A stretch of 64,000 nt of DNA from Deltaproteobacteria bacterium (GTDB lineage: Bacteria; Myxococcota; Myxococcia; SLRQ01), in the NCBI GenBank assembly GCA_029210625.1, contig JARGFU010000001.1, positions 325,806-389,805 of the forward strand, written 5' to 3'. Positions 38,778-62,688 of the stretch are shown one piece after another. Position 1 is the first letter of the stretch; each line of letters begins with the position of its first letter. The notes beneath the pieces were generated by a model. It was not told the DNA's origin. It made no database searches and worked only from the letters and a program-made list of their open reading frames with translations. A program made the translations under genes and the position numbers.

Positions 38778-38788
38778 CGAGCACCCCC

Positions 38789-39238: not shown

Positions 39239-39273
39239 CGCGAGGCGGGTCGGCTGATCCATATTGCTCCGCT

Positions 39274-41256
39274 ATGGCCAACCGACGACCCACCGAGATC
39301 CAGCTCTCCGGCCGCATCCTCTACCTGACCGGCGATCCCTCGCTCGTCAGGCAGCAGCTCGAGTCCGGCGAAACCCTCCCCTGGGACCCCGCGCGGCCCC
39401 GGATGGACAACATCTCCACCGACGAGATCACCCCGGGGTGGGTCTGCTTCTACTACGACGAGACCCTGGGCGAGTACGTCTACGTGGGGATGCGCGAGAA
39501 GGCGGTCCAGAAGGATCAGGTGAAGTCCTTCGGCGCCGACGTCGTCGTCTCCGGCCTCTCCAAGGGCTGCGGCTCCTCCCGCGAGACCGCCCCCTACGCC
39601 GAGGTCTGGGCAGGCGTAAAGCTGGTGATCGCCGAGACCATCGAGAAGATCTACGGGCAGAACTCGGTGAACGTCGGCCTGCTCACCAGCACCGACTTCG
39701 GGCTCGTCCCCCGCATCCTCGCCGGCGAGAAGATCCCGCTCTCCGAGTTCACCAGGGGGATGGATCCGATCTCGACGGCCATCGTCGAGCACGGCGGCCT
39801 CTTCCCCTACAACGAGGCGCGCCTCGCCGGTGAGATCGCCCCGCCGAAGATCGAGACCGCCGCCCGGCCGATGACGATGGTCGAGAAGATCGTCGCCCGG
39901 CACGCCATCGCCGACGCCAAGACCGGCGCGCTCGGCATCCCCGCGGTGAAGCCCGGTGACGCCCTCTTCGTGCGCACCGACGTGCGCTTCTCCCACGAGT
40001 ACGTCACCCCGATGGCGGCCTCCCTCTTCCTGCAGTCCCTCGGCGAGGACGCGAGGGTCAGCGAGCCCGAGAGCGTCTTCGCCTTCCGGGATCACCTCAC
40101 CTTCCTGGGCCAGGTCATGCCCGAGGAGCAGCGGAAGATGGGCCTGCTCGAGCGGGCCGACGGCCTGGCGACGACCCAGCAGGGCTTCGCCGAGAAGCAG
40201 GGCATCAAGCTCTACGGTGAGGTGGAGGGCGGCGGCTCCGAGGCGATCTGCCACAACGCGATCCTCGAGGACATCGGCCTGCCCGGGCAGATCATCCTGG
40301 GCACCGACTCCCACACCTGCACCGCCGGCGCGTTCGGCGCCTTCGCGTTCGGGGTCGGGAGCACCGACATGGCCAACGCCTGGTACACCCGCGACGTCCG
40401 GGTGAAGGTGCCCGAGACCATCAAGGTGCACCTGAAGGGCCAGCGGAGGAAGGGCGTCACCGCCAAGGACGTGATCCTCCTGGTGATGGCCCAGGACTAC
40501 ATCAAGAGCGGCAAGGGCATCGGCCAGGTGCTCGAGTTCTGCGGCCCCGGCCTCGCCGACCTCGGCATGGACGAGCGCGCCACCCTCACCAACATGGCCG
40601 TGGAGGCCGGCGGGTTCACCGGCATCTGCGAGGCCGACGAGAAGACCCTGGAGTGGCTGCAGTGGATCCGCCCGGGCGTCGACCTCGAGGCCGCCCGCGC
40701 CGGCATCGTCGCCTCCGACGAGGACGCCTCCTACGTGCACACCGTCGAGTTGGACCTCGGCGACATCGAGCCGATGGTCGCCACCCCCGGCGATCCCCGC
40801 AACGGCATCCCGCTCTCCACCCTCGACGCCGTCGAGGGCGGCCCGGTGAAGATCGACATCGCCTACGGCGGCTCCTGCACCGGCGGGAAGATGGAGGACA
40901 TGGACCTCTACGCCTCGGTGCTCAAGGCCGCCCTGGCCGAAGGGAAGAAGGTCGCCGAGGGCGTGGACCTCTTCATCCAGTTCGGCTCCCAGAAGATCCG
41001 CAAGTACGCCGAGGAGAAGGGCTACATCGAGGTCTTCGAGGAGGCCGGCGCGCAGCTGATCAACCCCAGCTGCGGCGCCTGCATCCGGGCGGGCCCGGGC
41101 GTCTCCTACAGCGAGGAGACGGTGAGCGTCTCGGCGATCAACCGGAACTTCCCGGGCCGCAGCGGCCCCGGCAAGGTCTACCTGGCCTCGCCGCTCGTCG
41201 TCGCCGCCAGCGCCATCGCCGGCCACATCGTCTCTCCCGACGCACTCCTGGCCTAG
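39274..41256 (+). CDS. aconitase-superfamily hydro-lyase, fused swivel (LeuD-like) + catalytic (LeuC-like) domains
   Basis: N-terminal DNISTDEITPG swivel motif, then MTMVEKIVARHA..., GTDSHTCTAGAFGAFAFGVGSTD and CGACIRAGPG, consistent with Fe-S cluster ligands. Confidence 0.8.
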   Translation: MANRRPTEIQLSGRILYLTGDPSLVRQQLESGETLPWDPARPRMDNISTDEITPGWVCFYYDETLGEYVYVGMREKAVQKDQVKSFGADVVVSGLSKGCGSSRETAPYAEVWAGVKLVIAETIEKIYGQNSVNVGLLTSTDFGLVPRILAGEKIPLSEFTRGMDPISTAIVEHGGLFPYNEARLAGEIAPPKIETAARPMTMVEKIVARHAIADAKTGALGIPAVKPGDALFVRTDVRFSHEYVTPMAASLFLQSLGEDARVSEPESVFAFRDHLTFLGQVMPEEQRKMGLLERADGLATTQQGFAEKQGIKLYGEVEGGGSEAICHNAILEDIGLPGQIILGTDSHTCTAGAFGAFAFGVGSTDMANAWYTRDVRVKVPETIKVHLKGQRRKGVTAKDVILLVMAQDYIKSGKGIGQVLEFCGPGLADLGMDERATLTNMAVEAGGFTGICEADEKTLEWLQWIRPGVDLEAARAGIVASDEDASYVHTVELDLGDIEPMVATPGDPRNGIPLSTLDAVEGGPVKIDIAYGGSCTGGKMEDMDLYASVLKAALAEGKKVAEGVDLFIQFGSQKIRKYAEEKGYIEVFEEAGAQLINPSCGACIRAGPGVSYSEETVSVSAINRNFPGRSGPGKVYLASPLVVAASAIAGHIVSPDALLA

Positions 41257-41319
41257 CTCCACCGCAGCTCCTCGGGGCACCTCGCTGGCCCGTCGCCACG
41301 GCGAGGAGTAGATTGGCCC

Positions 41320-43212
41320 TTGTTGAGCGCGCCGGGAAAAAGACGGCTGGTCTTCGTCCAGTTCTCGCCTACCACCGAGGGGAGCCGGCGCTCGCCGCTC
41401 TTCTTCTCCACGGCGATCTACCAGCTCAAGGCCTACCTGGAGAGCGATCCGGTCCTGAAGGAGCGCTACGAGCTGGAGATCCGCCTCATCGAGGAGCCGG
41501 GGCAGAGCCGCTTCAAGGACTGCGACGCCTACTACATCGACACCCTGCGCACGCTGCTGGCCGGGGACCCCGACGTGCTGGCCTTCAGCCTCTACGTCTG
41601 GAACCTCGACAGCGCCCTGAACCTCGCCCGGGCGCTGCGGCCCATGCGCCCGGACCGCCTCCTCCTCGCCGGGGGTCCCGAGATCTACGAGCGGCCCCGC
41701 TTCGTCGAGAGCTACCCGGAGTTCGACCTGCTCCTCGAGGGTGACGGCGAGCTCCCCCTGCAGCGCACCCTCCACGCCCTCCTCGAGCGCGAGCCCCCCC
41801 TCGAGGGCATCGAGGGCCTCTCCTTCCGGGACGCGAGGGGCGAGTGGGTCCACAACCGCTCCAACCTCCAGACCCTCGACCTCGACGAGATCCCCAACTT
41901 CTACGCCGAGCACCCCGAGCAGCTCTACGGTCAGGCCAACTACATGACCACCCGGGGCTGCTCCTTCGCCTGCACCTACTGCCTCTGGGCCAAGCAGCGC
42001 TTCCGCGCCCGCTCTCCGGCGACGATCCTCGCCGAGCTGGAGACCATCCTCTCGGCCGAGGCCGTCGACAGCCTCTCGATCTGGGACTACGACCTCCTCG
42101 AGGTCTTCGAGAACGAGCCGGAGCTGGGCACCACCTTCATCGAGTTCTTCGAGCGGCACCGCCGCGCCCCCCTCCACTTCTTCTCCACCGCGGAGCACCT
42201 GGCCGCGGCGCCGGTCGAGCTCCTCACCGAGCGCCTCAACGTCGGCCGGATCAGCGTCGGCGTGCAGTCGTGCAACCCCGAGACCCTCCTGGCGGTGAAC
42301 CGGCCCTGGGCGGCCGATCCCCTGGAGCACCTGGCCCGGGTGGACGACCACCTCCGGACGCTGATCTCGATCCAGCTCGTCTACCCGATGCCGGCGGAGA
42401 CCCCGGAGACCTTCCTCGAGCTGGTGCGCTCCCTGACCCGCCTGGGCTACTTCCGGATCCAGATCTTCCCGCTGATGGTCCTGCGGGGGACCTCGATGTC
42501 GAAGCACGCCGACCGCTGGGGTCTCGAGCACCTCTCCGCCCCGCCCTACTACTGCTACCGGACCCCCAGCGCGGCGCCGGACTCGGTGTGGACGGTCACC
42601 GGGCTCGCCCGGGTCCTCGAGATCATCGAGACCCGCTCCGCTCCCCTCGACCCCGGCGAGCGGCTCCTGCGCTGGTACCGCGCCCACCCGGGGCTGGTGG
42701 ACGACTTCATCGCCCGCATCGCCGCCGGGGACGAACCCGAGGCGATCGCCCTCGACACCCTGCGCGAGGCCCTCCCCGAGCTGGCCCCCTCCGAGCCGGT
42801 GCCCGAGTACGAGCCGGAGCCGGAGCCTGAACCCGAACCCGAACCCGAGCCGGAGCCCGAACCGGAGCCCGAGCCGGAGCCGGAGCTCGAGTCCCCGGAC
42901 ACGGGCCGACCTCCCCCGGTGGACTGGAACGACATCGGGGACGAGGTCATGCGCCTGCTGGCCGAGACCTGGCCGCCGGGGGTCGAGGTGAGCTTCGGCG
43001 AGGAGCACATCGCGCTGACCCTCTATCCCGAGCGCGGCCCGGCCCAGCTCGTCCTGCGCCGCTCGGCCTCGGGCGAGCCCTACTACCGCGCCACCTCCCG
43101 CTACGAGCTCTCCTACGGCGGCGCCTTCCCGGACCTCGGGATCGTCGACCGGATCGCCGAGCTCCTCGAGGGCATCGCGCCCCCCCGGCAGGGCGAAGAG
43201 GAGGGAGCGTGA
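41320..43212 (+). CDS. B12-binding-domain radical SAM enzyme (class B-like) with C-terminal (EP)n low-complexity tail
   Basis: N-terminal cobalamin-binding-like domain. TTRGCSFACTYCLW is a CxxxCxxC motif. TTG start with a GAGGAG RBS. Confidence 0.8.
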   Translation: MLSAPGKRRLVFVQFSPTTEGSRRSPLFFSTAIYQLKAYLESDPVLKERYELEIRLIEEPGQSRFKDCDAYYIDTLRTLLAGDPDVLAFSLYVWNLDSALNLARALRPMRPDRLLLAGGPEIYERPRFVESYPEFDLLLEGDGELPLQRTLHALLEREPPLEGIEGLSFRDARGEWVHNRSNLQTLDLDEIPNFYAEHPEQLYGQANYMTTRGCSFACTYCLWAKQRFRARSPATILAELETILSAEAVDSLSIWDYDLLEVFENEPELGTTFIEFFERHRRAPLHFFSTAEHLAAAPVELLTERLNVGRISVGVQSCNPETLLAVNRPWAADPLEHLARVDDHLRTLISIQLVYPMPAETPETFLELVRSLTRLGYFRIQIFPLMVLRGTSMSKHADRWGLEHLSAPPYYCYRTPSAAPDSVWTVTGLARVLEIIETRSAPLDPGERLLRWYRAHPGLVDDFIARIAAGDEPEAIALDTLREALPELAPSEPVPEYEPEPEPEPEPEPEPEPEPEPEPEPELESPDTGRPPPVDWNDIGDEVMRLLAETWPPGVEVSFGEEHIALTLYPERGPAQLVLRRSASGEPYYRATSRYELSYGGAFPDLGIVDRIAELLEGIAPPRQGEEEGA

Positions 43213-44196
43213 GCGGCCCCCGCCTCCATGTGCCCCTCAAGGCCGTGGACGAGGTCGGCCCCCTGGTCGAGGCCGGCGCCGGCTCCTTCTACGCCGGCCT
43301 CATCCTGCCTCGCCCCGGGGGGGGAGGACGCCGCGGCGGATCCCGCGAGCTGCCTGGTCAGCCGGCGTGCCCACCCCAGCAACAACTTCCAGCGGGTGGA
43401 GGACTTCCTCGAGGCCCAGCGCCAGCTCCACGCCGCGGGCAGATCCCTCTTCCTCACCCTCAACGAGCACAGCAACCCGCCGGAGGTGGTGGACCGCATC
43501 GAGGCCCTCCTCCAGCAGCTGGTCTCGAGCCCGGGGCTCACCGGCGTCATCGTCGCCGACCTCGGCCTCGCCCGCTTCCTCTCGGAGCGCTTCCCCGAGC
43601 TGATCCTGGTGGCCAGCACCGGCCTCGCCCTCTCCAACAGCGGCGCGGTGGAGCTGGTGCGCCGCCTCGGCATCCGGCGGGTGGTCTTCCCGCGGATGCT
43701 CCACCTGGAGGAGATGGCCGCCCTGGTCGAGCGCTGCCCCGAGGTCGAATTCGAGACCTTCGTGATGAACGACCGCTGCCCGAACGTCGACGGGCTCTGC
43801 AACTTCGTCCACTGGGAGGTCGGTGAGACCCACTTCCCCAACCAGTGCCGCTTCGTCCGCCTCGACGGCGCCACGGGTCCCGACCAGCGCCCCGGCAACT
43901 TCAACCTCTCCCTCCGCTTCCGGGAGGACGCCTGCGGCGCCTGCTCCCTCCACGCCCTGCGAGAGGCCGGCGTGCAGCACCTGAAGATCGTCGGCCGGGA
44001 TCGGGGGCTCGAGAACAAGCGGCAGGCGGTGAGCTTCCTGGCCGGGCTCCTCGAGCGGCTGGCGGCCGGCCCCCTCCCCGCCGGCGAGTTCCACGCGCTC
44101 GCCCGCGAGCGCTACGCCGAGACCTTCGGCCGGGCCTGCACCCCCGACCAGTGCTACCTTCCCGGCGAGGGTGAGGCCAAGGAGCCCGCGGCCTGA
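43209..44196 (+). CDS. U32-family (collagenase-like; UbiU/RlhA/TrhP-type) protein, frameshifted at a G8 tract
   Basis: The N-terminus MSGPRLHVPLKAVDEVGPLVEAGAGSFYAGL is in frame 0. From 43325 on, homology continues in frame +1 (RAHPSNNFQRVEDF...IVADLGLARF...FVMNDRCPNVDGLCNFVHW). GTG start overlaps the upstream stop (GTGA). Confidence 0.65.
43317..43324 (+). repeat. G8 homopolymer at the U32 frameshift site
   Basis: cgccccGGGGGGGGagg. Deleting one G restores a continuous U32 reading frame. Confidence 0.7.
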
Positions 44197-44241
44197 TCGG
44201 ACCCCTCGAGGGCCGCTCACCCCGGAAGCGACGGTAGCTCG

Positions 44242-45681
44242 ATGGAACAGGCCCTCTTCGTCTCCTGCCTGGACGATCTGCGACACGCCCACACGCGGCG
44301 CTACGATCGGATCTACTTCGGGGTCGAGGTCTGCCACTGGCTGATGCCGAGCCCCCTCCAGCTGCGCTCGGCCCTCGACTTCGCGAAGCTGCAGGGCCTG
44401 CCGCTCACCCTCGTCACGCCCGTCCTCCCCGAGGTGGGCCTCGAGCGCGTCCGCCCCCTCCTCGCGCTCCTCCCGCCGGGCAGCGAGGTCGTGGTGAACG
44501 ACCTGGGGCTGATCCCCGACGTGAGCGAGGCCGGTCACCACCCCCTCCTGGGGAGGATCCTGCTCAAGGTGAAGCGCGACCCCCGGATCGGCGCCGAGGA
44601 TCTGGAGCACCCGGGCCTGGCCGCGCACCTGCGCGCGTCGAACGTGACCAACCACGCCTTCCAGGCGCTGCTGCGCTCCCTGGGCATCCAGCGCATCGAG
44701 CTGGACAACGTGCAGCAGGGCTACGACCTCGACCTGCCCGACGATCTGCGCACCTCGCTCTATCGCCCCTACGTCTCGGCCGCCGTCACCCGCCGCTGCG
44801 GCCTGAACTTCAGCGAGGGGAACACCGATCTCCTCTGGCGGGACGGGAGCTGCCGGGAGCACTGCCAGGAGACCCAGCTGGAGGTGAGCACCCTCAAGCA
44901 GGTGGGCTCGACGAAGGTCTGGGCCTCCTACCAGGCGCGAGGGGCCAGCCTCTTCTACGCCAACCACGCCGAGCCGGAGGACACCGAGGGCTGGAACCTC
45001 GACCGGGAGGTCCACCTCCCCCGCCCGCCGGTCTTCGCCTCCCTGCCGCCGGACGAGGCCGAGCCCGCCTGGGACAGCGCCTACCGCGAGCAGGGCCTCG
45101 AGGTCGCCTGGAACCACGCCGAGGCCGACCCCCTCCTGCTCGAGCTCGCCGGCCGGGAGCCTCCCCTCGAGGGGGCGAACGCCCGGGCGGTGGAGCTCGG
45201 CTGCGGCACCGGCCGCAACGCCGCCGCCCTGCAGGACCTGGGCTTCGAGGTGCTGGGGATCGAGCGCTCGCCGGCGGCCCTGGCCCTGCTCCGCGAGCAC
45301 CACCCGGCGGTGCAGGCGGTGCTCGGGGACGTGCTCGAGTTCCCCCTGGCCGACGACGCCCACGCGCTGGTGGCCGACTACGGCTGCCTCCATGCCCTCG
45401 CCCCCTCCCGCTGGGGGCGCTACGCCGAGCGGGTGAAGGCCACCCTCGCCCCGGGGGGCCGCCTCCTCCTCTTCGCCCGCCGGCTCCCCGAGGGTCACGC
45501 CCCCGAGGCCCCCGTCTTCGTCGTACCGGGCGGCCTCCCCGAGTGGGGCCTCTCGGAGGCCCACGCCCGTGAGCTCTTCGGGCCCTCCCTCTCCCTGGAG
45601 GAGGTGGTCCCCTACGAGGGCGCCGCCCACGCCTCCGGCGTCGAGCAGTTCAACTACTTCCTCTTCCGGAGGATCGCGTGA
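44242..45681 (+). CDS. fusion protein: U32-family (UbiV-like) domain + class I SAM-dependent methyltransferase domain
   Basis: N-terminal DRIYFGVEVCHWLM...VVVNDLGLI is U32-like. C-terminal VELGCGTGRNAAAL...PGGRLLLF is an MTase motif I / post-I pattern. Confidence 0.75.
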   Translation: MEQALFVSCLDDLRHAHTRRYDRIYFGVEVCHWLMPSPLQLRSALDFAKLQGLPLTLVTPVLPEVGLERVRPLLALLPPGSEVVVNDLGLIPDVSEAGHHPLLGRILLKVKRDPRIGAEDLEHPGLAAHLRASNVTNHAFQALLRSLGIQRIELDNVQQGYDLDLPDDLRTSLYRPYVSAAVTRRCGLNFSEGNTDLLWRDGSCREHCQETQLEVSTLKQVGSTKVWASYQARGASLFYANHAEPEDTEGWNLDREVHLPRPPVFASLPPDEAEPAWDSAYREQGLEVAWNHAEADPLLLELAGREPPLEGANARAVELGCGTGRNAAALQDLGFEVLGIERSPAALALLREHHPAVQAVLGDVLEFPLADDAHALVADYGCLHALAPSRWGRYAERVKATLAPGGRLLLFARRLPEGHAPEAPVFVVPGGLPEWGLSEAHARELFGPSLSLEEVVPYEGAAHASGVEQFNYFLFRRIA

Positions 45682-46763
45682 GCCTCACCCCCCTCAAGGG
45701 CTTCACCCCGGCCGCCTCGACGCCTCGCCTCATCGCCGGCCCCTGCGCCGCCGAGACCCGGGAGCAGGTCCTGGAGGCGGCCCGCGCGCTGGCGGGGACG
45801 CCGGGGCTGATGTGGTTTCGCACGGGGGTCTGGAAGCCGCGCACCCGCTCGGCGAGCTTCGAGGGCGCGGGCGAGCCGGCCCTCGCGTGGCTGGCCGAGG
45901 TCCGGGAACTGGGGCTCGAGCCCTGCCTGGAGGTCGCCCTCCCGCGGCACGTGGAGCAGGCGCTGGCCGCCGGCATCGACTGCTTCTGGATCGGCACCCG
46001 CACCGTGGGCAGCCCCTTCGCGGTGCAGGAGCTGGCCGACGCCCTCGCCGGCTGCGGCGAGGTCTCGCTCCTGGTGAAGAACCCCCTGAGCCCCGACCTG
46101 GGCCTCTGGCTCGGCGCCCTCGAGCGCCTGGAGCGCGCCGGGCTCACGCGCCTGGGCGGGATGCACCGCGGCTTCCTGATGCACTCCCAGGAGGGCCAGC
46201 CCCGGGGAGAGCGCTATCGCTTCAGCCCCCGCTGGCGCCTGGTCCTGGCGCTGCGCCGCCTCCTGCCCGACCTGCCGATCTTCGCGGACCCCAGCCACCT
46301 CGCCGGCCACCGCGAGCTCGTCGGCGAGGTCGCGCAGATGGCCCTCGACCTGGGCCTGGACGGCCTGATGCTCGAGGTCCACCCCCGGCCGGACGAGGCC
46401 CTCTGCGACGCCGAGCAGCAGCTCGATCCGCCCGGGCTCGGCCGGCTCCTCGGCGAGCTGATCCTGCGCCGGCCGGAATCGCCGGCGCCGGCCTTCGGCA
46501 GCGAGCTCGAGAAGCTGCGGGCGGCGATCGACGAGGCCGACGCCGCCATCCTCGAGGCGGTGGCCCGCCGGCTCGGCATCGTCGAGGAGATCGCCCGGCT
46601 GAAGCAGGGGGAGCGGGTGACGCCCTTCCAGCGGGCCCGGATGATCGAGGTGCTCGAGAGCTGGCGGGAGGCGGGCACGAGGCTCGGGCTCGACGACCGG
46701 CTCACGACCGAGCTCTACGAGCTCCTCCACGAGGCCGCCCTCGAGGTGCACTGGAAGCGCTGA
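45678..46763 (+). CDS. bifunctional 3-deoxy-7-phosphoheptulonate (DAHP) synthase (type I-beta) / chorismate mutase (AroQ) fusion
   Basis: LIAGPCAAETREQ and WKPRTRSASFEG blocks are DAHPS/KDO8PS-family. The C-terminal ~90 aa (LEKLRAAIDEADAAILEAVARRLGIVEEIARLK) is a CM domain. GTGA overlap with the upstream gene. Confidence 0.85.
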   Translation: MSLTPLKGFTPAASTPRLIAGPCAAETREQVLEAARALAGTPGLMWFRTGVWKPRTRSASFEGAGEPALAWLAEVRELGLEPCLEVALPRHVEQALAAGIDCFWIGTRTVGSPFAVQELADALAGCGEVSLLVKNPLSPDLGLWLGALERLERAGLTRLGGMHRGFLMHSQEGQPRGERYRFSPRWRLVLALRRLLPDLPIFADPSHLAGHRELVGEVAQMALDLGLDGLMLEVHPRPDEALCDAEQQLDPPGLGRLLGELILRRPESPAPAFGSELEKLRAAIDEADAAILEAVARRLGIVEEIARLKQGERVTPFQRARMIEVLESWREAGTRLGLDDRLTTELYELLHEAALEVHWKR

Positions 46764-48051
46764 GCCGCTCGAGGACCCGCTCGGCCAGGGTGAGCACGCC
46801 CTCGAAGCCGAGGTGCGGCCTCGGGCGCAGGGGGTGGGTGTCCACCTGCGGATAGCCGAACTCGAGCACCGGCAGCTCGGGCGCCCGGCCCGCGATCGCC
46901 CGCGCCTCCCAGGCGCTGCCGATCAACAGATCGAGGGGACCCCGCGTCTCGGCCTCCTCCACGGCCGCCTGGAGCCGCTCCACGCTGGGGTCGAAGAGGA
47001 GGCGCTCGACCCGCGCCTCGACGAGCTCCTGCTCCGGCAGCCCCTCCGGGCCTCCCCGGCTGCGGCAGAAGGCCGTGTCGACCTCGAGGCCGAGATCGTC
47101 GGTGAGGCAGCGCACCATCCCCGGGAGCCACTCCCGGGTGGCGGCGATCATCACCCGCCGGCCGAGCAGGCGATCGGCGACCGTCTCGAGGCGCTCGAGG
47201 ATCCGCTCCTGCTCACGGCCGATGAGCTCGGCCAGGTGGGGCCCCCTCCCCCGCGCCTCACCCAGCGCCTGCAGCCAGGCGCTGCTCCCCTCGAGGGAGA
47301 GGGGCAGGGGCAGCTCGAGCGCCGCCGTCTCGCTCGCCCGCCGCAGCCGCTGGGCGGCCTTGCGGGCCCCGGGCAGCGCGATCAGCTGCTCGCAGGCCGC
47401 CACCCGCTGCAGCTCGGGCCAGGGCGCGCCCGAGAGCCAGGGGGGAAGGAGCTCGAGGCCGAGGAGCCCGGCCAGGCGCGCCAGCTCGAGGAGGTCTCCC
47501 TCGACGTCGCCCTCGCTGCGGTGCGCCAGGTAGCCCAGCAGCCCGAGGGTGTCCGGCTCGACGGCCGGGGCCTCGGCGCAGGCGCCGGCCAGCTCCGCCA
47601 GCAGCACCTCCCAGGCGTCCTCGTAGCTCCGGTCGAGGTGGCGGGTGCGGGCGGCGAGCACCGGCACGCCGTGCCGCTTCTGCAGGGCCCGGGCGACCGC
47701 TCGCAGATCCTCCCCGGCCAGGAGGTAGCGGGGCAGCTCCGAGAGCAGCACCAGCGAGGGCGCGATCCGGGCGAAGGCGCCGTCCGCCGTGCTCATCACC
47801 TCGGACTCGGTGCCCATCACCATCTGGGTGTAGGGGTCCCGGGTGACCCAGAGCCGGTTCGGCGCGTCGGGGCGCGTGAGGGTCTGGCGCAGGTCGTGAT
47901 CGATCATCTGCGCCCGGAAGGCCTCCTCGATGCAGGACGAGCCCCGGTAGAGGAGCAGCGCGTCGGGGATCGCCCCGGCCACCATGAAGACCCCGTCCAT
48001 GAAGGAGGGGGTGGTGCGCAGGGTGTCGTCCCGGGGTGGCGCCTCGCTCAT
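46702..48051 (-). CDS. nitrogenase component-1-like (NifD/K/E/N, BchN/B family) protein
   Basis: GAIPDALLLYRGSSC resembles the conserved GA..IPDA..HG..GC block. GGAGG RBS. ATGA overlap with the upstream gene. Confidence 0.65.
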   Translation of the reverse strand: MSEAPPRDDTLRTTPSFMDGVFMVAGAIPDALLLYRGSSCIEEAFRAQMIDHDLRQTLTRPDAPNRLWVTRDPYTQMVMGTESEVMSTADGAFARIAPSLVLLSELPRYLLAGEDLRAVARALQKRHGVPVLAARTRHLDRSYEDAWEVLLAELAGACAEAPAVEPDTLGLLGYLAHRSEGDVEGDLLELARLAGLLGLELLPPWLSGAPWPELQRVAACEQLIALPGARKAAQRLRRASETAALELPLPLSLEGSSAWLQALGEARGRGPHLAELIGREQERILERLETVADRLLGRRVMIAATREWLPGMVRCLTDDLGLEVDTAFCRSRGGPEGLPEQELVEARVERLLFDPSVERLQAAVEEAETRGPLDLLIGSAWEARAIAGRAPELPVLEFGYPQVDTHPLRPRPHLGFEGVLTLAERVLERLSASSAPRGRPRGGARRARS

Positions 48052-50147
48052 GTCCTGACCTCCGGTCCGCGGAAGGCCGCCAGCCTGCGGCGCGAGTCCA
48101 GCCGCCGCAGCAGCCCGCGGAGCCGGCCGTGGCCGCGGCGATGGCCGGCCTCCCCCATCTCCAGGAGCTGGATGCCCACCGGCGCCGCGCCGGCCGCCCA
48201 GATCTCCCGGCCGGCGTTGTGATCGCAGTAGACGAGATCGAGGGACGCGTCGGCGACGAGCCGGGCGAGCTCGACCTCGTCCTCGACCCGCAGGCGGCGG
48301 GGCCCTCCGCCGGAGGCGTCCGTGGGCTCGTCGTCGCCGCCGAGCTGCACCAGGACGAGCTCGGCGCCGGGGAAGTCCAGGAGCTCCTCCACCGAGGCGC
48401 CGTAGAAGAAGCGGGGATCGAGCACCTCCTCGAAGCTGCCCTGATCGAAGAGCACGCCGATCCGGATGGGCTGCTCCGAGGCGCGCAGCCCGGGCAGCGC
48501 GCTCGCCGCGCCCGCCTCGCCGCCGAGGTCGCGGCCGAGGAAGCGATGGATCGCCTCCAGCCACCGGCGCAGGCCCCGCGGCCCGTAGGGTAGCGCCAGC
48601 TCCAGGTAGGGGAGCTCGAAGCCCTCGAGGAAGCGGGTGAAGGTGTGGCGGATCGGCTCCCAGGGAGAGACGAGGGTCAGGGCCGCCTGGCCGAAGCGCG
48701 CCTCGGCGTCCGCGCCGCGGTAGGGGAGCACGACCTCCCCCAGGGCGAGGCCGTGCCGCTCGAGGGTGCCGGCCAGATCCGCGATCCAGGGGGCCTCGGC
48801 CGGGCCGTAGCCCACCAGGTTGATCCGGGGCGCCCCCTGCAGAGCGGCCGCCGCGCCCTCCTGCGCCTGCACCCGCTCCAGGAACTTGTGCCACCAGTTG
48901 CGCGACTGCGGCTCCTCGAAGCCGGCGAGCACCGGCTCCAGGAAGAGCGCGTCGCTGGCCGCGGGCTCGACGCAGCGGCGGCAGGCCGCCTCGGGGGCGT
49001 CCCCCACCATGTGGAACTCGCAGCCCTCCATCACCCGGGGCCGGGTGCCGGGGAAGCGGCGCACGGTCTGATCGACGATCTGCGCCAGGGTGCGCTCACC
49101 GCCGGTGACCGAGATCGTCTCGTCCAGCCCGGTGACCCGCACCCGCTCGATCTCCATGCGCTCCCGGGGATCGTGACCCCGCCAGGGGCGGAAGCTCGTC
49201 TCGATGCTCCGTCCGAGGGCGCCGGTCCCCATGGCGCACTCCCGCGAGGCGTGGAGCACCATCGGGTCGCTGTCGCGAAGGAAGTTCGCCTCGGCGGTGA
49301 GGCCAAAGGTGTCGGCGTCGCCCCAGGCGGAGAAGAAGCGGCTGCTGGCGTGAGGATCGACGCCGGCCCGGTAGCAGGCCGAGATGAGGCTCTGGCGTTG
49401 CCGCGCGGGCTCTCCCCCGGACTCCGGGGAGGGCTCGCTGGCCGGCGCCTCGGGGGGTGGGCCGGCGGGCGGCTCGGGGGGATCGTCCTTCGGCACCCGG
49501 GCCCAGCCCTGGCGGCCGCCGAGGGTGCGCAGGAGCAGGAAGGTGAGGGCGGTGAAGACCTCCGCCTCGAGCGGCCCCTGCGGGATCAGCCGGCCACCGG
49601 CGAGGGCGAAGCCCTCGCTCTCCTCTCCGGTCTCGCGCAGCAGCACCTCTCCCGCGGCGCCGCCCTCGTCCTCGAGCAGGAAGCGCACGGCCTCCCCCTC
49701 GGCCTCCTCGAGCGCCCTCAAGCACCAGCCGGACCAGAAGGGCCGGCCCAGGGGCAGGAGCCCGGCGATGGCGTCGCCGATCGCCTCGGGGGTGAAGGGG
49801 ATCGGCTCTCCCGGGAGCTCCGGGGCGAGCCAGGGAGCGAAGCCCGCCTCGAGGGCCTGCGTCAGGCGGCGGTGGAAGGCCTCCAGCTGGCGGCGGCTCG
49901 CCTCCCCCCGGGGCAGGCCCTCGCCGCCGATCAGGCGCCAGGCCCCCAGCCCGAGGACCGGCCCCTCCCGGGAGGCGGCGCCGGCCAGCTCGAGGATCAT
50001 CGCCCGCCGGTGGCTGCCCTCACCCCAGGCCAGCTCGAGGCTGCCCTCGGCGGTGGGCCGCAGCCGGGCGGGGCCCTCGCTGCGCGTGCCGAACTTCTCG
50101 GCGAGGTGAGAGAGGACCGAGTCCAGGGGCGGCGGTGCCGAGAACAT
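48048..50147 (-). CDS. nitrogenase component-1-like protein with ~350-aa N-terminal extension of unknown function
   Basis: The C-terminal half shows Oxidored_nitro-like blocks (RINLVGYGPAEAPWIADL..). Tight coupling, 6 nt downstream of the nifH-like stop. Confidence 0.6.
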   Translation of the reverse strand: MFSAPPPLDSVLSHLAEKFGTRSEGPARLRPTAEGSLELAWGEGSHRRAMILELAGAASREGPVLGLGAWRLIGGEGLPRGEASRRQLEAFHRRLTQALEAGFAPWLAPELPGEPIPFTPEAIGDAIAGLLPLGRPFWSGWCLRALEEAEGEAVRFLLEDEGGAAGEVLLRETGEESEGFALAGGRLIPQGPLEAEVFTALTFLLLRTLGGRQGWARVPKDDPPEPPAGPPPEAPASEPSPESGGEPARQRQSLISACYRAGVDPHASSRFFSAWGDADTFGLTAEANFLRDSDPMVLHASRECAMGTGALGRSIETSFRPWRGHDPRERMEIERVRVTGLDETISVTGGERTLAQIVDQTVRRFPGTRPRVMEGCEFHMVGDAPEAACRRCVEPAASDALFLEPVLAGFEEPQSRNWWHKFLERVQAQEGAAAALQGAPRINLVGYGPAEAPWIADLAGTLERHGLALGEVVLPYRGADAEARFGQAALTLVSPWEPIRHTFTRFLEGFELPYLELALPYGPRGLRRWLEAIHRFLGRDLGGEAGAASALPGLRASEQPIRIGVLFDQGSFEEVLDPRFFYGASVEELLDFPGAELVLVQLGGDDEPTDASGGGPRRLRVEDEVELARLVADASLDLVYCDHNAGREIWAAGAAPVGIQLLEMGEAGHRRGHGRLRGLLRRLDSRRRLAAFRGPEVRT

Positions 50148-50153
50148 CTGGGC

Positions 50154-51017
50154 TCACGACCCCCGCTGGCTCCCGGACCGCGCGGCCCGGGCGTGCTCCT
50201 GGAAGAGGGCCCGCAGCTCGACGTCGGAGAGCGGGGTGGGCACGATCCGCTCGAGGGCCGCCTCGTCGGCGATCGCCTCGAAGATCGTCACGAGCGCTCC
50301 GCTGGCCTCGCCGGTGGCCCCCTCGCCGCTCCGGAAGAGGGGCTCGCCCTCGAGCTCCGAGAGCACCACCTCCTCGGAGAAGGGGAGGTGACCCACCAGG
50401 CGGGTCTGCAGGGCCTCGGCGAAGCGCTCGAGGAGGCGCAGCTCCTCCGGGCTTCGCACCTTGTTCCCGATGATCCCGGCGACCCGGGCCTGGCCGATGT
50501 CGGAGAGGTTGTCGACGCCGCGGGCGATGTTGTTGGCGGCGTAGAGCGCCATGTACTCGGCGGAGGTGATGAGGAAGACGTCCGAGGGGATGTCCTCCCG
50601 CAAAGGCGTGGCGAAGCCACCGCAGACCACGTCCCCCAGGACGTCGAAGAAGGCCAGGTCGTAGGTGCGCTCGAGCTCCATGGACTCCCGCACCATCTCC
50701 AGCACCAGGCTCACCGCGCGGCCGGCGCAGCCGGTCCCCGGCTCGGGCCCGCCGGTCTCGATGACGTCGACCCCGGTGGGGGTCGAGACGATGAGCCGTT
50801 GCAGATCCTCGGGCCCCATCCGCCCGACCAGGCGGAGGAACTCCTGCATCACCGTGGGCACGGGCTCCCCCCGGTGATGGGCCAGGGTCGAGTCGTGCTT
50901 CGGATCGCAGCCCACCTGCAGCACCCGCAGATCGCGGCTCGCGCCCACCGAGGCGAGGCCCGAGCAGAGGGTCGACTTCCCGATCCCTCCCTTGCCGAAG
51001 AGGATGATCCTTCGCAC
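50154..51017 (-). CDS. NifH/BchL/ChlL-family ATP-dependent reductase iron protein homolog
   Basis: GKGGIGKST P-loop, GCDPKHDST, both cluster Cys (CAGR, VCGGFA). GTG start with an AAGGAAG RBS. Confidence 0.9.
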   Translation of the reverse strand: MRRIILFGKGGIGKSTLCSGLASVGASRDLRVLQVGCDPKHDSTLAHHRGEPVPTVMQEFLRLVGRMGPEDLQRLIVSTPTGVDVIETGGPEPGTGCAGRAVSLVLEMVRESMELERTYDLAFFDVLGDVVCGGFATPLREDIPSDVFLITSAEYMALYAANNIARGVDNLSDIGQARVAGIIGNKVRSPEELRLLERFAEALQTRLVGHLPFSEEVVLSELEGEPLFRSGEGATGEASGALVTIFEAIADEAALERIVPTPLSDVELRALFQEHARAARSGSQRGS

Positions 51018-61575: not shown

Positions 61576-62688
61576 TCAGCTGGCGCCCGGTCCGCCCAGC
61601 GGGCCGAGGCCGCCGGCGCGGGCGCGCTGCTCGAGGACGAGGTCGGCGAGCACCAGGCAGGTCATGGCCTCGACGATGGGCACCGCCCGGGGCAGGACGC
61701 AGGCGTCGTGGCGGCCGCGGGCCTCGAGGGTCGCGCCCACCCCCTCGCGGTCGATGGTGCTCTGCGGCTGGCCGATGGTCGCCACCGGCTTGAAGGCCAC
61801 CCGGAAGAGGAGGCTCTCGCCGGTGCTGATCCCGCCGAGGACGCCGCCCGCCCGGTTGGGGAGGCTGCGCACCCTCCCCTCCTCGAAGGCCAGGGGATCG
61901 TTGTGCTCGCTGCCCTTCATCCGGGCCGCGCGGAAGCCCTCGCCGATCTCGAAGCCGCGGCTCGCCGGCAGGCTCAGGGCGGCCGCCGCCAGGCGGGCCG
62001 GGAGCTTGTCGAAGACCGGCTCGCCGAGGCCGGGGGGCAGCCCCCGGGCGACGCAGACCACGACCCCGCCCAGCGAGTCCCGCTCGGCGCGCGCGGCGTC
62101 GATGGCGTCGATCATCTGGGTGCTGGCCAGGGGATCGGGGCAGCGGACCTCGCTGACGTCGACCTCGTGCTGGTTCACGCGCTCGGGATCGACCCCGGTG
62201 GCCTCCACCTCGCCGACGGCCTGCACCCAGGCGACGACCTCCAGGGGCAGCAGGCTGGCGAGCCACTGGCGGGCCACCGCGCCGGCGATCACCCGGGCCG
62301 CGGTCTCCCGGGCGCTGGCCCGGCCGCCGCCGCGGGGGTCGCGGTGCCCGTACTTGGCCTCGTAGGTGTAGTCGGCGTGGCCGGGTCGGTAGAGCCCGGC
62401 GAGGGCCTCGTAGTCCCTGGGCCGCGCGTCCTCGTTGCGGATCAGCGCGGCGATGGGCGTGCCGAGGGTGAGCCCCTCGTGGACCCCGGAGAGGAGCTCG
62501 ACCCGGTCGCCCTCCTGGCGGGGCGAGGCCCCGGCGCCCTGCCCCGGCCGCCGGCGATCCAGCTCGGCCTGCAGGGCGGAGAGGTCGAGGGCCAGCCCGG
62601 CCGGGCAGCCGTCGATCACGCAGCCGAGGGCCGCCCCGTGGGACTCCCCGAAGGTGCTCACCCGGAAGAGGCGCCCGAAGGTGTTCAC
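61576..62688 (-). CDS. aroC: chorismate synthase
   Basis: MNTFGRLFRVSTFGESHG, GGGRASARETAARV and GGISTGE signatures. GTG start. Confidence 0.9.
   Translation of the reverse strand: MNTFGRLFRVSTFGESHGAALGCVIDGCPAGLALDLSALQAELDRRRPGQGAGASPRQEGDRVELLSGVHEGLTLGTPIAALIRNEDARPRDYEALAGLYRPGHADYTYEAKYGHRDPRGGGRASARETAARVIAGAVARQWLASLLPLEVVAWVQAVGEVEATGVDPERVNQHEVDVSEVRCPDPLASTQMIDAIDAARAERDSLGGVVVCVARGLPPGLGEPVFDKLPARLAAAALSLPASRGFEIGEGFRAARMKGSEHNDPLAFEEGRVRSLPNRAGGVLGGISTGESLLFRVAFKPVATIGQPQSTIDREGVGATLEARGRHDACVLPRAVPIVEAMTCLVLADLVLEQRARAGGLGPLGGPGAS

What the first reader, a model, noticed from the sequence alone, without database searches (positions are those of the whole stretch)
39274..46763. 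Operon coupling two U32-family proteins, a B12-radical SAM enzyme, a SAM methyltransferase domain and a DAHP synthase-chorismate mutase fusion
Five co-directional genes are linked by GTGA/ATGA overlaps or short spacers. They encode an aconitase-family hydro-lyase, a class-B-like B12-binding rSAM, a UbiU/RlhA/TrhP-like U32 protein, a UbiV-like U32 domain fused to a class I methyltransferase, and a DAHPS fused to chorismate mutase. U32 proteins characterised so far (RlhA for rRNA ho5C, TrhP for tRNA ho5U, UbiU/UbiV for ubiquinone) catalyse O2-independent hydroxylations. These are reported to depend on prephenate, the direct product of chorismate mutase. Embedding a dedicated DAHPS-CM, with an extra aroC 15 kb away, next to a U32 pair plus two methylating enzymes suggests a self-contained anaerobic hydroxylation and methylation module. 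Its substrate is unknown.
Basis: partly seen in the sequence, partly recalled or inferred. Interest (0 to 1): 0.85.

Follow-up and report, generated by a model that had tools for sequence, protein, structure and literature searches.

The report
Oxygen-free hydroxylase–methylase cassette with prephenate supply
A four-gene block in an uncultured myxobacterium-like genome joins an uncharacterised pair of iron-sulfur "U32" proteins (the family that hydroxylates without O2, taking the oxygen from prephenate) to two methylating enzymes and to an enzyme that makes prephenate; this is independent genomic support for that chemistry, but the substrate is unknown and the exact gene combination was seen only once.

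Summary
The fifth, the "UbiV-like" domain, has no Pfam hit. It is supported by remote homology to U32 proteins, a TIM-barrel model and four invariant cysteines.

Four corrections apply:
- The aconitase-family gene is a highly conserved stand-alone gene. Close relatives keep it in the same synteny without the downstream genes, so the functional unit is four genes (41320-46763).
- The first U32 gene carries a frameshift in a G8 run in this assembly.
- Nothing shows that aroC is an extra copy.

The U32 pair belongs to a widespread, uncharacterised heterodimer-type family of about 2,100 clusters. Fusion of the second subunit to this methyltransferase recurs, including one protein that combines B12-rSAM, glycosyltransferase, U32b and methyltransferase. 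Fourteen related loci place the pair inside genuine quinohemoprotein amine dehydrogenase operons that lack QhpG, the O2-dependent Trp hydroxylase.

The rSAM's nearest characterised relatives, KedN5 and CysS, extend aryl methoxy groups. The best reading is an O2-independent hydroxylation, O-methylation and further methylation cassette with its own prephenate supply. I classify it as a new variant of a known kind. The DAHPS-CM linkage is almost unique to this contig.

The parts
39274..41256 (+). Aconitase-family protein of 660 aa, with a LeuD-like swivel domain N-terminal to the LeuC-like catalytic domains. It is a conserved flanking gene and probably not part of the module.
   Evidence: Pfam and NCBIfam hits. 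At least 120 relatives are listed at 69-83% identity. In L090 (79% identical) and L091 (75%) the NUDIX gene still lies upstream (L090 also keeps the penicillin amidase), but no rSAM, U32 or DAHPS genes follow.
41320..43212 (+). Cobalamin-binding radical SAM enzyme of 630 aa. CX3CX2C lies at nt 41959-41982, an (EP)12 linker at nt 42811-42882, and a C-terminal domain of about 105 aa has no match.
   Evidence: Best NCBIfam model is NF033712, the KedN5-family methylcobalamin rSAM C-methyltransferase, at 94 bits; the next model scores 57. Best solved relative is the CysS homologue 9n1b (76 bits, E 2e-20), followed by TokK. Its stop codon overlaps the U32a start in GTGA.
43209..44196 (+). U32a, a Peptidase_U32 family Fe-S protein. 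It is frameshifted in the assembly in the G8 run at 43317-43324; removing one G gives 328 aa.
   Evidence: PF01136 at 104 bits; the best NCBIfam models are UbiU (73 bits) and TrhP (52.7 bits), both far below cut-off. The frameshift is shown. Seven Cys are conserved in 98-100% of 85 family members, including CX6CX15C, at nt 43777, 43798, 43846, 43933, 43942, 44137 and 44152.
44242..45681 (+). U32b-MT fusion of 479 aa. A divergent U32-like TIM-barrel domain (aa 1 to about 265) is joined to a TPMT/Methyltransf_25-type class I SAM methyltransferase (aa 276-417 by Pfam).
45678..46763 (+). Bifunctional type I-beta DAHP synthase with a C-terminal AroQ chorismate mutase, 361 aa. It is the proposed prephenate supply.
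   Evidence: DAHP_synth_1 and CM_2 hits. Every column invariant across 15 homologues is kept. The nearest relatives are Bacteroidota bifunctional enzymes at 45-54% identity. GTGA overlap with the U32b-MT stop codon.
46702..48051 (-). Nitrogenase component-1-like subunit (NflK-like), 449 aa. Its 3' end overlaps the 3' end of the DAHPS-CM gene by 62 nt. Membership of the module is not shown.
   Evidence: PF00148 at 136.6 bits. The best NCBIfam model is BchN at 43 bits against a cut-off of 324. ATGA overlap with the upstream gene.
48048..50147 (-). Nitrogenase component-1-like subunit (NflD-like), 699 aa, with an N-terminal extension of about 290 aa that has no match.
   Evidence: PF00148 at 48.7 bits over aa 297-540. 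No NCBIfam hit.
50154..51017 (-). NifH/BchL/CfbC-like ATP-dependent reductase subunit, 287 aa.
   Evidence: Fer4_NifH at 220.7 bits. nifH scores 230.8 and CfbC 223.9 bits, both below cut-off.
61576..62688 (-). Chorismate synthase (aroC), 14.8 kb downstream. It is presumably the housekeeping copy.
   Evidence: PF01264 at 439.8 bits.

Best explanation
Genes 41320-46763 form one translationally coupled cassette for O2-independent hydroxylation followed by methylation.

Proposed steps:
1. U32a and U32b act as a two-subunit iron-sulfur hydroxylase, in the way UbiU and UbiV do. They oxidise an electron-rich, most likely aromatic, carbon of the substrate and quench it with the hydroxyl released when prephenate decarboxylates to phenylpyruvate.
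2. The class I methyltransferase fused to U32b methylates the new hydroxyl, as UbiG does after UbiU/V and TrmR does after TrhP.
3. The cobalamin radical SAM enzyme adds one or more further methyl groups. Its nearest characterised relatives (KedN5, CysS) extend an aryl-O-CH3 group to ethoxy or isopropoxy, so it may act on the new methoxy carbon.
4. The DAHP synthase-chorismate mutase raises flux into the shikimate pathway and converts chorismate to prephenate. This supplies the oxygen donor and possibly the aromatic precursor.

Shown here: gene order and coupling; domain identities; conserved cysteines; recurrence of the U32a/U32b pair and of the U32b-MT fusion.

Inferred: hydroxylase activity; prephenate use; O-methylation; the target of the rSAM; the substrate. 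For the substrate I favour a small aromatic or lipid-linked metabolite, then a peptide residue, then RNA.

The upstream aconitase-family gene is a conserved neighbour and not part of the cassette. The convergent nitrogenase-like HDK operon may cooperate with the cassette, but this is not shown.
For: Coupling and intact domains:
- GTGA overlaps join rSAM to U32a and U32b-MT to DAHPS-CM.
- U32a carries PF01136 at 104 bits, and its best NCBIfam models are UbiU and the prephenate-dependent TrhP.
- The U32a family HMM matches E. coli TrhP (137 bits), UbiU (134) and RlhA (114).
- The cysteine ligands are conserved: U32a has CX6CX15C plus four more Cys, and U32b has four Cys that align with four cysteines of UbiV, which I take to be its published cluster ligands.
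- The DAHPS-CM keeps all family-invariant residues.

The pair and its fusions recur:
- In the GTDB loci where both genes are intact, the pair is adjacent in 63 of 66.
- The U32b-MT fusion recurs in at least 10 clusters, in both domain orders. One 1220 aa protein fuses B12-rSAM, GT1, U32b and MT.
- B12-rSAM genes accompany the fusion in L001 and in the JGI contig.
- In L002 the methyltransferase is a separate gene directly after U32b.

Clues to the chemistry:
- 14 loci were classed as qhp-type by clustering. In the one scanned with HMMs, L082, the pair lies inside a genuine qhp operon in which no QhpG, the O2-dependent Trp dihydroxylase, was found. This points to aromatic hydroxylation (PMC7876137).
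- The rSAM's best family and structural matches are KedN5 and CysS. PMC12846815 describes the oxygenase (CysC), O-methyltransferase (CysF) and CysS sequence acting on a chorismate-derived arene.
- A second DAHP synthase lies 116 bp from a U32b-U32a pair in L065.
- Prephenate is the O donor for UbiU/V (PMC10990095).
Against: - The DAHPS-CM/U32 combination is a singleton. No other contig among 5.8 billion proteins, 80 GTDB loci or 80 metagenome loci repeats it, apart from the looser L065 case.
- U32a is frameshifted as assembled, so the cassette could be dead.
- All matches to characterised enzymes are remote: UbiU 73 bits against a cut-off of 440, KedN5 94 against 700, and CysS about 28% identity.
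- U32b shows no significant similarity to UbiV itself.
- The methyltransferase is TPMT/TehB-like, so it could be an S-, N- or C-methylase.
- In L008 and L012 the U32a + U32b-MT genes stand alone among housekeeping genes. That fits a common cellular substrate such as RNA as well as it fits a specialised metabolite.
- Whether the genome has another DAHP synthase could not be checked.
Confidence: 0.5

Rival explanations
1. The co-location is incidental. The DAHPS-CM is simply the organism's feedback-regulated entry enzyme of aromatic amino acid synthesis, as this fusion is in Bacteroidota. It happens to sit behind an unrelated U32/rSAM gene set, and the U32 proteins draw on the general prephenate pool or do not use prephenate at all.
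For: The fusion architecture is the standard Bacteroidota housekeeping enzyme. Its closest homologues lie in housekeeping contexts without U32 genes. Among about 85 loci with the U32 pair, only one other (L065) has a shikimate-pathway gene nearby. No second DAHPS or CM was found in the window.
Against: A 4 nt start/stop overlap with U32b-MT indicates co-translation. The search returned no closer relative of any phylum, whereas a core enzyme of the lineage would be expected to have close orthologues in related genomes; the nearest relatives are 45-54% identical and are Bacteroidota. Close relatives of this genome lack the whole block behind the conserved aconitase gene, so the block arrived together or as lineage-specific additions.
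Confidence: 0.2
2. The cassette modifies RNA. The U32 pair makes 5-hydroxyuridine or 5-hydroxycytidine in tRNA or rRNA and the fused methyltransferase converts it to a methoxy base, like B. subtilis TrhP1/TrhP2 plus TrmR. The rSAM methylates RNA as well.
For: Two of the three characterised U32 functions are RNA hydroxylations, and TrmR methylates ho5U (PMC6599085, PMC5727448, PMC6158493). In L008, L012 and L065 the pair stands alone among housekeeping genes, next to miaB in L065.
Against: U32a lacks the C-terminal domains of TrhP and RlhA; it is 328 aa against 453 and 653 aa. The methyltransferase is not TrmR- or CmoA/B-like. Many family members sit in qhp operons or in rSAM/glycosyltransferase clusters, and one is fused to a glycosyltransferase. 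That does not fit an RNA substrate.
Confidence: 0.1
3. The cassette tailors a ribosomal peptide or protein by hydroxylating, O-methylating and C-methylating an aromatic residue. It may be linked to the rSAM/SPASM/PqqD cluster at 53019-59907.
For: The same U32 pair lies in qhp operons, where the target is a peptidyl Trp. The methyltransferase's best NCBIfam hit is a daptide RiPP methyltransferase, and several weaker rSAM hits are RiPP C-methyltransferases. A PqqD/rSAM-SPASM gene set lies 6-13 kb away.
Against: No precursor-like small ORF lies in or next to the module. Two operons in other orientations separate it from the PqqD cluster. The best rSAM relatives act on small-molecule thioesters.
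Confidence: 0.12
4. The U32 proteins are peptidases (collagenase-like), as the family name says, and the neighbouring genes are unrelated.
For: The Pfam family name, and reports of collagenolytic activity for PrtC and HP0169 cited in PMC5727448.
Against: There is no signal peptide in the translated proteins. Conserved multi-Cys Fe-S motifs are present. The genes are tightly paired with a second Fe-S subunit and fused to methyltransferases and rSAM enzymes. Recent literature treats these proteins as oxidases (PMC11574389).
Confidence: 0.03

Closest known systems
UbiU-UbiV (with UbiG/UbiE and UbiT), O2-independent ubiquinone biosynthesis in E. coli
   Same: Two adjacent genes encode a PF01136 protein and a more divergent partner. 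Each has conserved cysteines in positions that align with cysteines of UbiU and UbiV. Hydroxylation is followed by O-methylation. UbiU is the best NCBIfam hit for U32a. Prephenate is the established O donor (PMC10990095).
   Different: U32a scores 73 bits against the 440-bit UbiU cut-off. U32b shows no detectable sequence similarity to UbiV. U32a has three extra conserved Cys (CxxC plus CX4C). No SCP2/UbiT-type gene was identified among the annotated neighbours. The methyltransferase is fused rather than separate, and the host lineage is not known to make ubiquinone.
TrhP/TrhP1-TrhP2 with TrmR or CmoA/CmoB, and RlhA: U32-dependent RNA hydroxylation
   Same: U32 Fe-S proteins that depend on prephenate. 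In B. subtilis two U32 genes and a methyltransferase share an operon, and the hydroxyl is then methylated (PMC6599085, PMC6158493, PMC5727448).
   Different: The extra C-terminal regions of TrhP and RlhA are absent. The methyltransferase family differs (TPMT/Methyltransf_25 type, not TrmR or CmoB). Relatives lie in qhp, rSAM and glycosyltransferase contexts.
CysC-CysF-CysS tailoring of p-aminobenzoate in cystobactamid biosynthesis (myxobacteria), and KedN5 of kedarcidin
   Same: The same three-step logic on a chorismate-derived arene: ring hydroxylation, SAM O-methylation, then cobalamin-rSAM methylation of the methoxy carbon (PMC12846815). A CysS homologue is the best solved-structure match and KedN5 the best NCBIfam model for the window rSAM. 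That KedN5 builds the isopropoxy group of kedarcidin is from my own knowledge; no paper in the library confirmed it.
   Different: The hydroxylase in that pathway is an O2-dependent oxygenase. Identity to CysS is only about 28% over the Cbl and rSAM domains, and the substrate-binding C-terminal domain is unrelated. No NRPS or carrier protein is nearby.
QhpG, the flavin monooxygenase that dihydroxylates Trp for the cysteine tryptophylquinone cofactor
   Same: In L082 the pair lies inside the qhp operon, between qhpB and the exporter gene, and no QhpG was found there; 13 further loci were classed qhp-type by clustering. This suggests the same chemical job, arene hydroxylation, done without O2.
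   Different: The protein family and cofactors are unrelated. This concerns relatives of the window genes, not the window itself, which has no qhp genes.
Bacteroidota bifunctional DAHP synthase/chorismate mutase (Porphyromonas/Prevotella type)
   Same: The same domain order, 45-54% identity, and all invariant residues kept.
   Different: In Bacteroidota it is the housekeeping enzyme in unrelated contexts. Here it is translationally coupled to a U32 gene in a different phylum.

Membership tests
U32 (PF01136) Fe-S hydroxylases | Peptidase_U32 domain above the Pfam gathering score | tested here: met
   U32a scores 104 bits against a cut-off of 22.4. U32b has no Pfam hit and only remote profile-profile homology to the U32a family (94.6%, E 6.5e-8).
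U32 (PF01136) Fe-S hydroxylases | Conserved cysteine motif (CX6CX15CX3-4C, or the UbiU/UbiV variants) that binds a 4Fe-4S cluster | tested here: met
   U32a has C190-X6-C197-X15-C213, conserved in 100% of 85 sequences. The fourth ligand is not at X3-4, but C242, C245, C310 and C315 are 98-99% conserved. U32b has C31, C186, C204 and C208 at 98-100% of 80 sequences, aligned with four cysteines of E. coli UbiV, which I take to be its published ligands C39/C180/C193/C197. Cluster binding itself was not tested.
U32 (PF01136) Fe-S hydroxylases | TIM-barrel fold like the solved U32 protein Mk0906 (5d88) | tested here: inconclusive
U32 (PF01136) Fe-S hydroxylases | Prephenate-dependent, O2-independent hydroxylation activity | not testable with these tools
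   Only the genomic coupling to chorismate mutase and the L065 DAHPS adjacency bear on this.
UbiU / UbiV / TrhP equivalogs | Score above the NCBIfam equivalog cut-off | tested here: not met
   UbiU 73 against 440; TrhP 52.7 against 534; the YhbV-type model 15.7 against 283; no hit for U32b. No RlhA model appeared among the hits. These proteins are not members of those orthologous groups.
KedN5/CysS-type cobalamin radical SAM methylases | N-terminal Cbl-binding Rossmann domain plus rSAM CX3CX2C core | tested here: met
   B12-binding at 31.5 bits (gathering score 32.1, so marginal). Radical_SAM at 31.4 bits (above 29.5). CSFACTYC at aa 214-221.
KedN5/CysS-type cobalamin radical SAM methylases | Family-level score (NF033712 cut-off 700) and a matching C-terminal substrate domain | tested here: not met
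   94 bits, covering model positions 22-396 of 624 only. The CysS alignment stops at residue 403. This is the closest known family, but membership is not shown.
Bifunctional type I-beta DAHP synthase / AroQ chorismate mutase | Both domains present with catalytic and metal-binding residues conserved | tested here: met
   PF00793 at 77.5 and PF01817 at 53.9 bits. All 71 columns invariant across the 16-sequence alignment are kept, including C23, K53-R55 (KPR), H207, E233 and D244, and R281, R298 and K309 in the CM part.
Nitrogenase-like (NFL) reductases | A NifH-like ATPase plus two PF00148 subunits in one operon | tested here: met
   All scores are far below the nifH, CfbC, BchL, BchN and BchB cut-offs, so no known functional group can be assigned.

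The most novel reading that the evidence does not exclude
The window carries one member of a large, unrecognised family of two-subunit U32 iron-sulfur hydroxylases, about 2,100 clusters at 50% identity. Anaerobes and facultative anaerobes appear to use this family as a general O2-independent replacement for oxygenases. It would act in cysteine tryptophylquinone cofactor maturation in place of QhpG, and in glycosyltransferase- and rSAM-rich tailoring clusters. In this window it would act in a self-sufficient cassette that makes its own oxygen donor (prephenate), O-methylates the product through a fused methyltransferase, and extends the methoxy group with a CysS-like cobalamin rSAM. It may work together with a new nitrogenase-like ATP-driven reductase.
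Probability: 0.3. Interest if true: 0.85.

Novelty: new variant of a known kind. Interest (0 to 1): 0.6.

Why it matters
Direct hydroxylase activity has not been shown in vitro for any U32 protein, and most of the 12 subfamilies have no known function (PMC10990095, PMC11574389).

A U32 pair that is hard-wired to a chorismate mutase and fused to its follow-up methyltransferase is independent comparative evidence for three points. Prephenate-dependent hydroxylation would extend beyond ubiquinone and RNA. The hydroxyl would typically be alkylated next. And this chemistry would be used in specialised metabolism.

The family-wide observations also give concrete, testable systems, some in cultured bacteria such as Schinkia azotoformans and Desulfotruncus alcoholivorax. 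These are the pair's presence in qhp operons that lack QhpG, and the megafusion with B12-rSAM, glycosyltransferase and methyltransferase. Such systems could address how oxygen atoms are inserted without O2. They also offer candidate enzymes for anaerobic production of alkoxy-arenes.

Tried and rejected
- Rfam scan of the whole window: no hit, so no riboswitch was detected upstream of the module.
- Promoter and terminator scan of 38200-51400: nothing informative in this 72% GC DNA. It could not settle whether the aconitase gene is co-transcribed.
- hhalign of the six-sequence U32b alignment against single UbiV or UbiU sequences: no signal. An HMM built from 80 U32b sequences also fails to match UbiV, UbiU, TrhP or RlhA. 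Only the family-against-family comparison worked.
- Sequence search of the PDB with U32a: no meaningful hit.
- The AFDB50 fold library was not available.
- Test for a shared extra domain between the rSAM C-terminus and the NflD N-terminal extension: no similarity.
- CmoA-like (prephenate-using) identity for the methyltransferase domain: rejected, because no CmoA model appears among the hits.
- The apparent 500 bp regulatory gap upstream of the aconitase gene: rejected. It holds a second copy of a small lipoprotein gene.
- Search for the window's own contig to inspect the rest of the genome: the protein is not on record in the contig index, and the genome is not among the GTDB species representatives. 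The test for a sole DAHP synthase could therefore not be run.
- PheA-, TyrA- and AroF-like genes near other U32 pairs: none found.
- The 35 aa ORF next to U32a in L001, considered as a possible precursor peptide: it has no recognisable features and was not pursued.

Full report
**1. What is in the sequence**

The window is 72% GC, so I called genes by third-position GC. In the flagged interval there are five + strand genes:
- 39274-41256, aconitase family, 660 aa. The long upstream extension of the ORF is out-of-frame junk, and ATG 39274 is the first plausible start.
- 41320-43212, B12-binding radical SAM, 630 aa.
- 43209-44196, Peptidase_U32, here called U32a.
- 44242-45681, 479 aa, here called U32b-MT.
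- 45678-46763, DAHP synthase plus type II chorismate mutase, 361 aa.

Pfam and NCBIfam confirm these identities. The junctions are a 63 nt spacer, a GTGA overlap, a 45 nt spacer and a second GTGA overlap.

- U32a is frameshifted. Its first 38 codons carry family-invariant residues such as G23 and G30 and run in the frame of GTG 43209. The rest runs in the frame of 43228. The shift lies in a G8 run at 43317-43324, and removing one G gives an intact 328 aa protein.
- The apparent 500 bp gap upstream of the aconitase gene holds a second copy of a small lipoprotein gene.
- A convergent minus-strand operon encodes a NifH-like protein (50154-51017) and two nitrogenase component-1-like proteins (48048-50147 and 46702-48051, joined by an ATGA overlap). 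Its last 62 nt overlap the end of the DAHPS-CM gene.

**2. Which genes belong together**

The aconitase-family protein is not special to this locus.
- The listed relatives, mostly from Acidobacteriota and Myxococcota, are 69-83% identical.
- In the two closest contigs (79% and 75% identical) the NUDIX gene still lies upstream of the aconitase gene; the 79% contig also keeps the penicillin amidase. The gene is followed by unrelated convergent genes, with no rSAM, U32 or DAHPS.
- I therefore treat it as a conserved flanking gene.

The functional unit is the four genes 41320-46763, a lineage-specific addition possibly together with the nitrogenase-like operon. The base composition of the block is not atypical. 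Promoter, terminator and Rfam scans gave nothing.

**3. The U32 pair**

*U32a.*
- It is a clear PF01136 member at 104 bits.
- Its best NCBIfam models are UbiU (73 bits) and the prephenate-dependent TrhP (52.7 bits), both far below the equivalog cut-offs.
- An HMM built from 85 U32a relatives matches E. coli TrhP, UbiU and RlhA at 137, 134 and 114 bits.

*U32b.* The N-terminal 270 aa of the fourth protein has no Pfam or NCBIfam hit and shows no significant similarity to UbiV or UbiU, either directly or by HMM. Three lines of evidence still make it a divergent U32-type subunit:
- A profile of 77 relatives matches the U32a family profile by hhalign at 94.6% probability, E 6.5e-8, over 143 columns.
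- It is almost always encoded next to U32a.

- U32a has C190-X6-C197-X15-C213, conserved in 100% of 85 sequences. It also has C242, C245, C310 and C315, conserved in 98-99%.
- U32b has C31, C186, C204 and C208, conserved in 98-100% of 80 sequences. In the MAFFT alignment they fall on four cysteines of E. coli UbiV (at AVCSK, ARCFT and DECETCC), which I take to be its published cluster ligands.

**4. How widespread the pair is, and what it sits with**

*Size and adjacency.*
- A profile search of 1.84 billion representative proteins finds 2,146 U32b clusters at E <= 1e-3 and 678 at E <= 1e-30. Most are stand-alone proteins of 250-330 aa.
- A scan of GTDB species representatives returned 80 loci from many anaerobic or facultative lineages: Omnitrophota, Desulfosporosinus, Altiarchaeota, Acidobacteriota, Myxococcota, Bacillales and others.
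- U32a and U32b are both intact in 66 of these loci and adjacent in 63, in either order.

*Contexts* fall into three groups.
- Fourteen loci are quinohemoprotein amine dehydrogenase operons.
  - In Schinkia azotoformans (L082) NCBIfam identifies QhpC, QhpA and QhpE above cut-off. QhpD scores 445 against a cut-off of 453, and QhpB also matches. An ABC exporter is present, and U32b and U32a lie between qhpB and the exporter. No QhpG is found.
  - QhpG is the O2-dependent flavoenzyme that dihydroxylates the Trp that becomes cysteine tryptophylquinone (PMC7876137).
  - No paper in the library links U32 with this system.
- Twelve loci are rich in B12-rSAM and rSAM-SPASM genes.
- The remaining 53 are varied, often just the two genes among housekeeping genes.

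**5. The methyltransferase fusion and the rSAM link**

The word-indexed search found only three other full-length U32b-MT fusions:
- a Polyangia contig with four B12-rSAM genes, four further rSAM genes and glycosyltransferases;
- a JGI contig with a B12-rSAM, three rSAMs, a UbiA prenyltransferase and a PMT_2 glycosyltransferase;
- L008, where the two genes stand alone among toxin-antitoxin and thioredoxin genes.

The exhaustive HMM search adds more:
- at least eight further fusion clusters;
- one fusion in the reverse order, MT-U32b;
- a 1220 aa protein with B12-binding and rSAM, glycosyltransferase 1, U32b and MT domains.

The U32b-MT part of that large protein is colinear with the window protein: 30% identity over 463 aa, E 4e-70. 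Its rSAM part is not an orthologue of the window rSAM. In L002 the methyltransferase is a separate gene directly after U32b. In L012, from an Anaeromyxobacteraceae MAG, the fusion lies among BamA, SurE and phosphoribosyltransferase genes. The link between U32b and this methyltransferase is therefore recurrent, and the link to B12-rSAM enzymes occurs several times independently.

The window rSAM's best NCBIfam model is the KedN5 family of methylcobalamin rSAM C-methyltransferases, at 94 bits against 57 for the next model. Its best solved relative is a CysS homologue (76 bits, E 2e-20, residues 79-403), followed by TokK. CysS extends the methoxy group of 3-methoxy-4-aminobenzoate to ethoxy, isopropoxy or butoxy, after the oxygenase CysC and the O-methyltransferase CysF have acted (PMC12846815). 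From my own knowledge, KedN5 is proposed to build the isopropoxy group of kedarcidin; I could not confirm this in the library. The match is remote. The cut-off is 700 and the C-terminal domain is unmatched, so this is a lead and not a family assignment.

**6. The DAHPS-CM**

- Both domains are intact, and every column invariant among 15 homologues is kept.
- Its nearest relatives, at 45-54% identity, are the bifunctional enzymes of Hymenobacter and other Bacteroidota. No closer relative of any phylum was returned.
- The two closest contigs show ordinary contexts without U32 genes.
- This fits a horizontally acquired or strongly diverged extra copy. Whether the MAG has another DAHP synthase could not be checked, because the genome is not among the GTDB representatives and the contig is not in the index.
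- Among the other loci carrying the U32 pair, one has a shikimate-pathway gene nearby. In Desulfotruncus alcoholivorax (L065) a DAHP synthase (253 bits) is transcribed divergently, 116 bp from U32b. No PheA-, TyrA- or AroF-like genes occur near the others.
- The prephenate link is thus supported by tight coupling here and by one loose parallel elsewhere. It is not a conserved neighbourhood.

**7. The nitrogenase-like operon**

- All three proteins are far from every named group. nifH scores 230.8 bits against 394, CfbC 223.9 against 402, and BchN 43 against 324.
- A metagenome scan found orthologous HDK trios at 51%, 32% and 41% identity without U32 genes. One of them lies behind genes whose Pfam hits (a PP-loop ATPase and an AIR carboxylase domain) resemble LarE and LarB.
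- A more distant NFL set lies directly beside a U32b-U32a pair and rSAM genes in L096, a 52% GC contig.
- None of the 80 GTDB loci with the U32 pair had NFL genes.
- Two independent co-locations are suggestive but do not establish a link. Several NFL groups still have no known function (PMC13474568).

**8. Most likely mechanism**

Steps 1 to 4 are the proposal; the paragraphs after them separate what was shown from what is inferred.
1. U32a and U32b form a two-subunit Fe-S hydroxylase that inserts an oxygen taken from prephenate. This is the mechanism proposed for UbiU/V: two-electron oxidation of the ring, then hydroxide delivery coupled to prephenate decarboxylation (PMC10990095).
2. The fused methyltransferase methylates the new hydroxyl. 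This follows the pattern of UbiG after UbiU/V and of TrmR or CmoB after TrhP.
3. The cobalamin rSAM adds further methyl groups, possibly on the methoxy carbon as CysS does.
4. The DAHPS-CM supplies prephenate.

Shown: gene anatomy, coupling, conserved ligands, recurrent pairing and recurrent fusion.

Inferred: every catalytic step and the substrate.

The qhp context of relatives argues for aromatic hydroxylation. The glycosyltransferase, UbiA and rSAM contexts of the closest fusion relatives argue for a small or lipid-linked metabolite. The stand-alone cases leave RNA or another common molecule open.

**9. Verdict**

It needs these corrections:
- the unit is four genes, not five;
- the U32a gene is frameshifted in this assembly;
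- these proteins are not UbiU, UbiV, TrhP or RlhA orthologues;
- the DAHPS-CM linkage is essentially a singleton;
- a nitrogenase-like neighbour was missed.

I classify it as a new variant of a known kind: an uncharacterised U32 heterodimer subfamily with a fused methyltransferase and a dedicated prephenate source.

Interest is moderate to high. It gives independent comparative support for prephenate-dependent hydroxylation and points to testable systems. The evidence for this particular locus comes from a single MAG contig.

Noticed in passing
window 43317-43324: A G8 homopolymer causes a frameshift in the U32a gene. The conserved N-terminal 38 residues are in the frame of GTG 43209 and the rest in the frame of 43228. 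This could be an assembly error, a pseudogene or slippage-prone phase variation.
   Followed up: partly
window 46702-51017 (minus strand): A very divergent nitrogenase-like HDK operon converges on the module and overlaps its 3' end by 62 nt. The D-like subunit has an unmatched N-terminal extension of about 290 aa. All scores are far below those of named NFL groups.
   Followed up: partly
L096 2912-8901: A 52% GC metagenome contig places a distant NFL set (K-like, D-like, H-like) directly beside a U32b (421 aa) and U32a pair, flanked by rSAM genes. This is a second, independent NFL/U32 co-location.
   Followed up: partly
L093 7242-14297: The closest NflHDK orthologues (51%, 32% and 41% identity) follow a gene with PP-loop ATPase hits and a gene with an AIR carboxylase domain, which resemble LarE and LarB. 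This hints at a link to nickel-pincer-type cofactor synthesis. No U32 genes are there.
   Followed up: no
L082 5096-14309 (Schinkia azotoformans); 13 further loci (L031, L042, L046, L051, L056, L059, L063, L072, L074, L075, L079, L083, L086) were grouped with it by clustering only: The U32b-U32a pair sits inside a bona fide quinohemoprotein amine dehydrogenase operon (QhpC, A, D, B, exporter, QhpE) in which no QhpG, the O2-dependent Trp dihydroxylase, was found. The pair may make the tryptophylquinone cofactor without O2. No paper in the library mentions this.
   Followed up: partly
protein P0283 (1220 aa, from the representative library): A single predicted protein fuses B12-binding/radical SAM, glycosyltransferase family 1, U32b and methyltransferase domains. 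It is a Rosetta-stone link between the enzyme types encoded separately in the window.
   Followed up: partly
L065 8911-11784 (Desulfotruncus alcoholivorax DSM 16058): A DAHP synthase is transcribed divergently, 116 bp from a U32b-U32a pair, among cinA-recA-recX, ftsH-like and miaB-like genes. It is the only other shikimate-pathway gene found next to the pair.
   Followed up: partly
window 39274-41256: An aconitase-family protein with the swivel (LeuD-like) domain N-terminal to the catalytic domains. The listed relatives, mainly from Acidobacteriota and Myxococcota, are 69-83% identical. It falls below all NCBIfam equivalog cut-offs; one database entry calls a relative 3-benzylmalate isomerase. 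It looks like a widespread enzyme of unknown specificity.
   Followed up: partly
window 38319-38777 and 38789-39238: Two tandem paralogous small lipoproteins (lipobox, conserved Cys pairs) with no family match fill what looks like an intergenic region upstream of the aconitase gene.
   Followed up: no
window 42811-42882: A perfect (Glu-Pro)12 linker in the B12-rSAM separates the catalytic core from a C-terminal domain of about 105 aa that matches nothing.
   Followed up: no
window 53019-59907 (minus strand): A peptide-maturation-like gene set: a PqqD-like protein, a 784 aa rSAM-SPASM protein with a weak PqqD-like match, a 513 aa HxsC-like rSAM and a 720 aa protein with no match. No precursor peptide was identified.
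   Followed up: no
window 23649-26170 (minus strand): Uroporphyrinogen decarboxylase and a protoporphyrinogen oxidase-like flavoprotein lie adjacent. Heme biosynthesis genes are thus about 15 kb from the nitrogenase-like operon. No link was examined.
   Followed up: no
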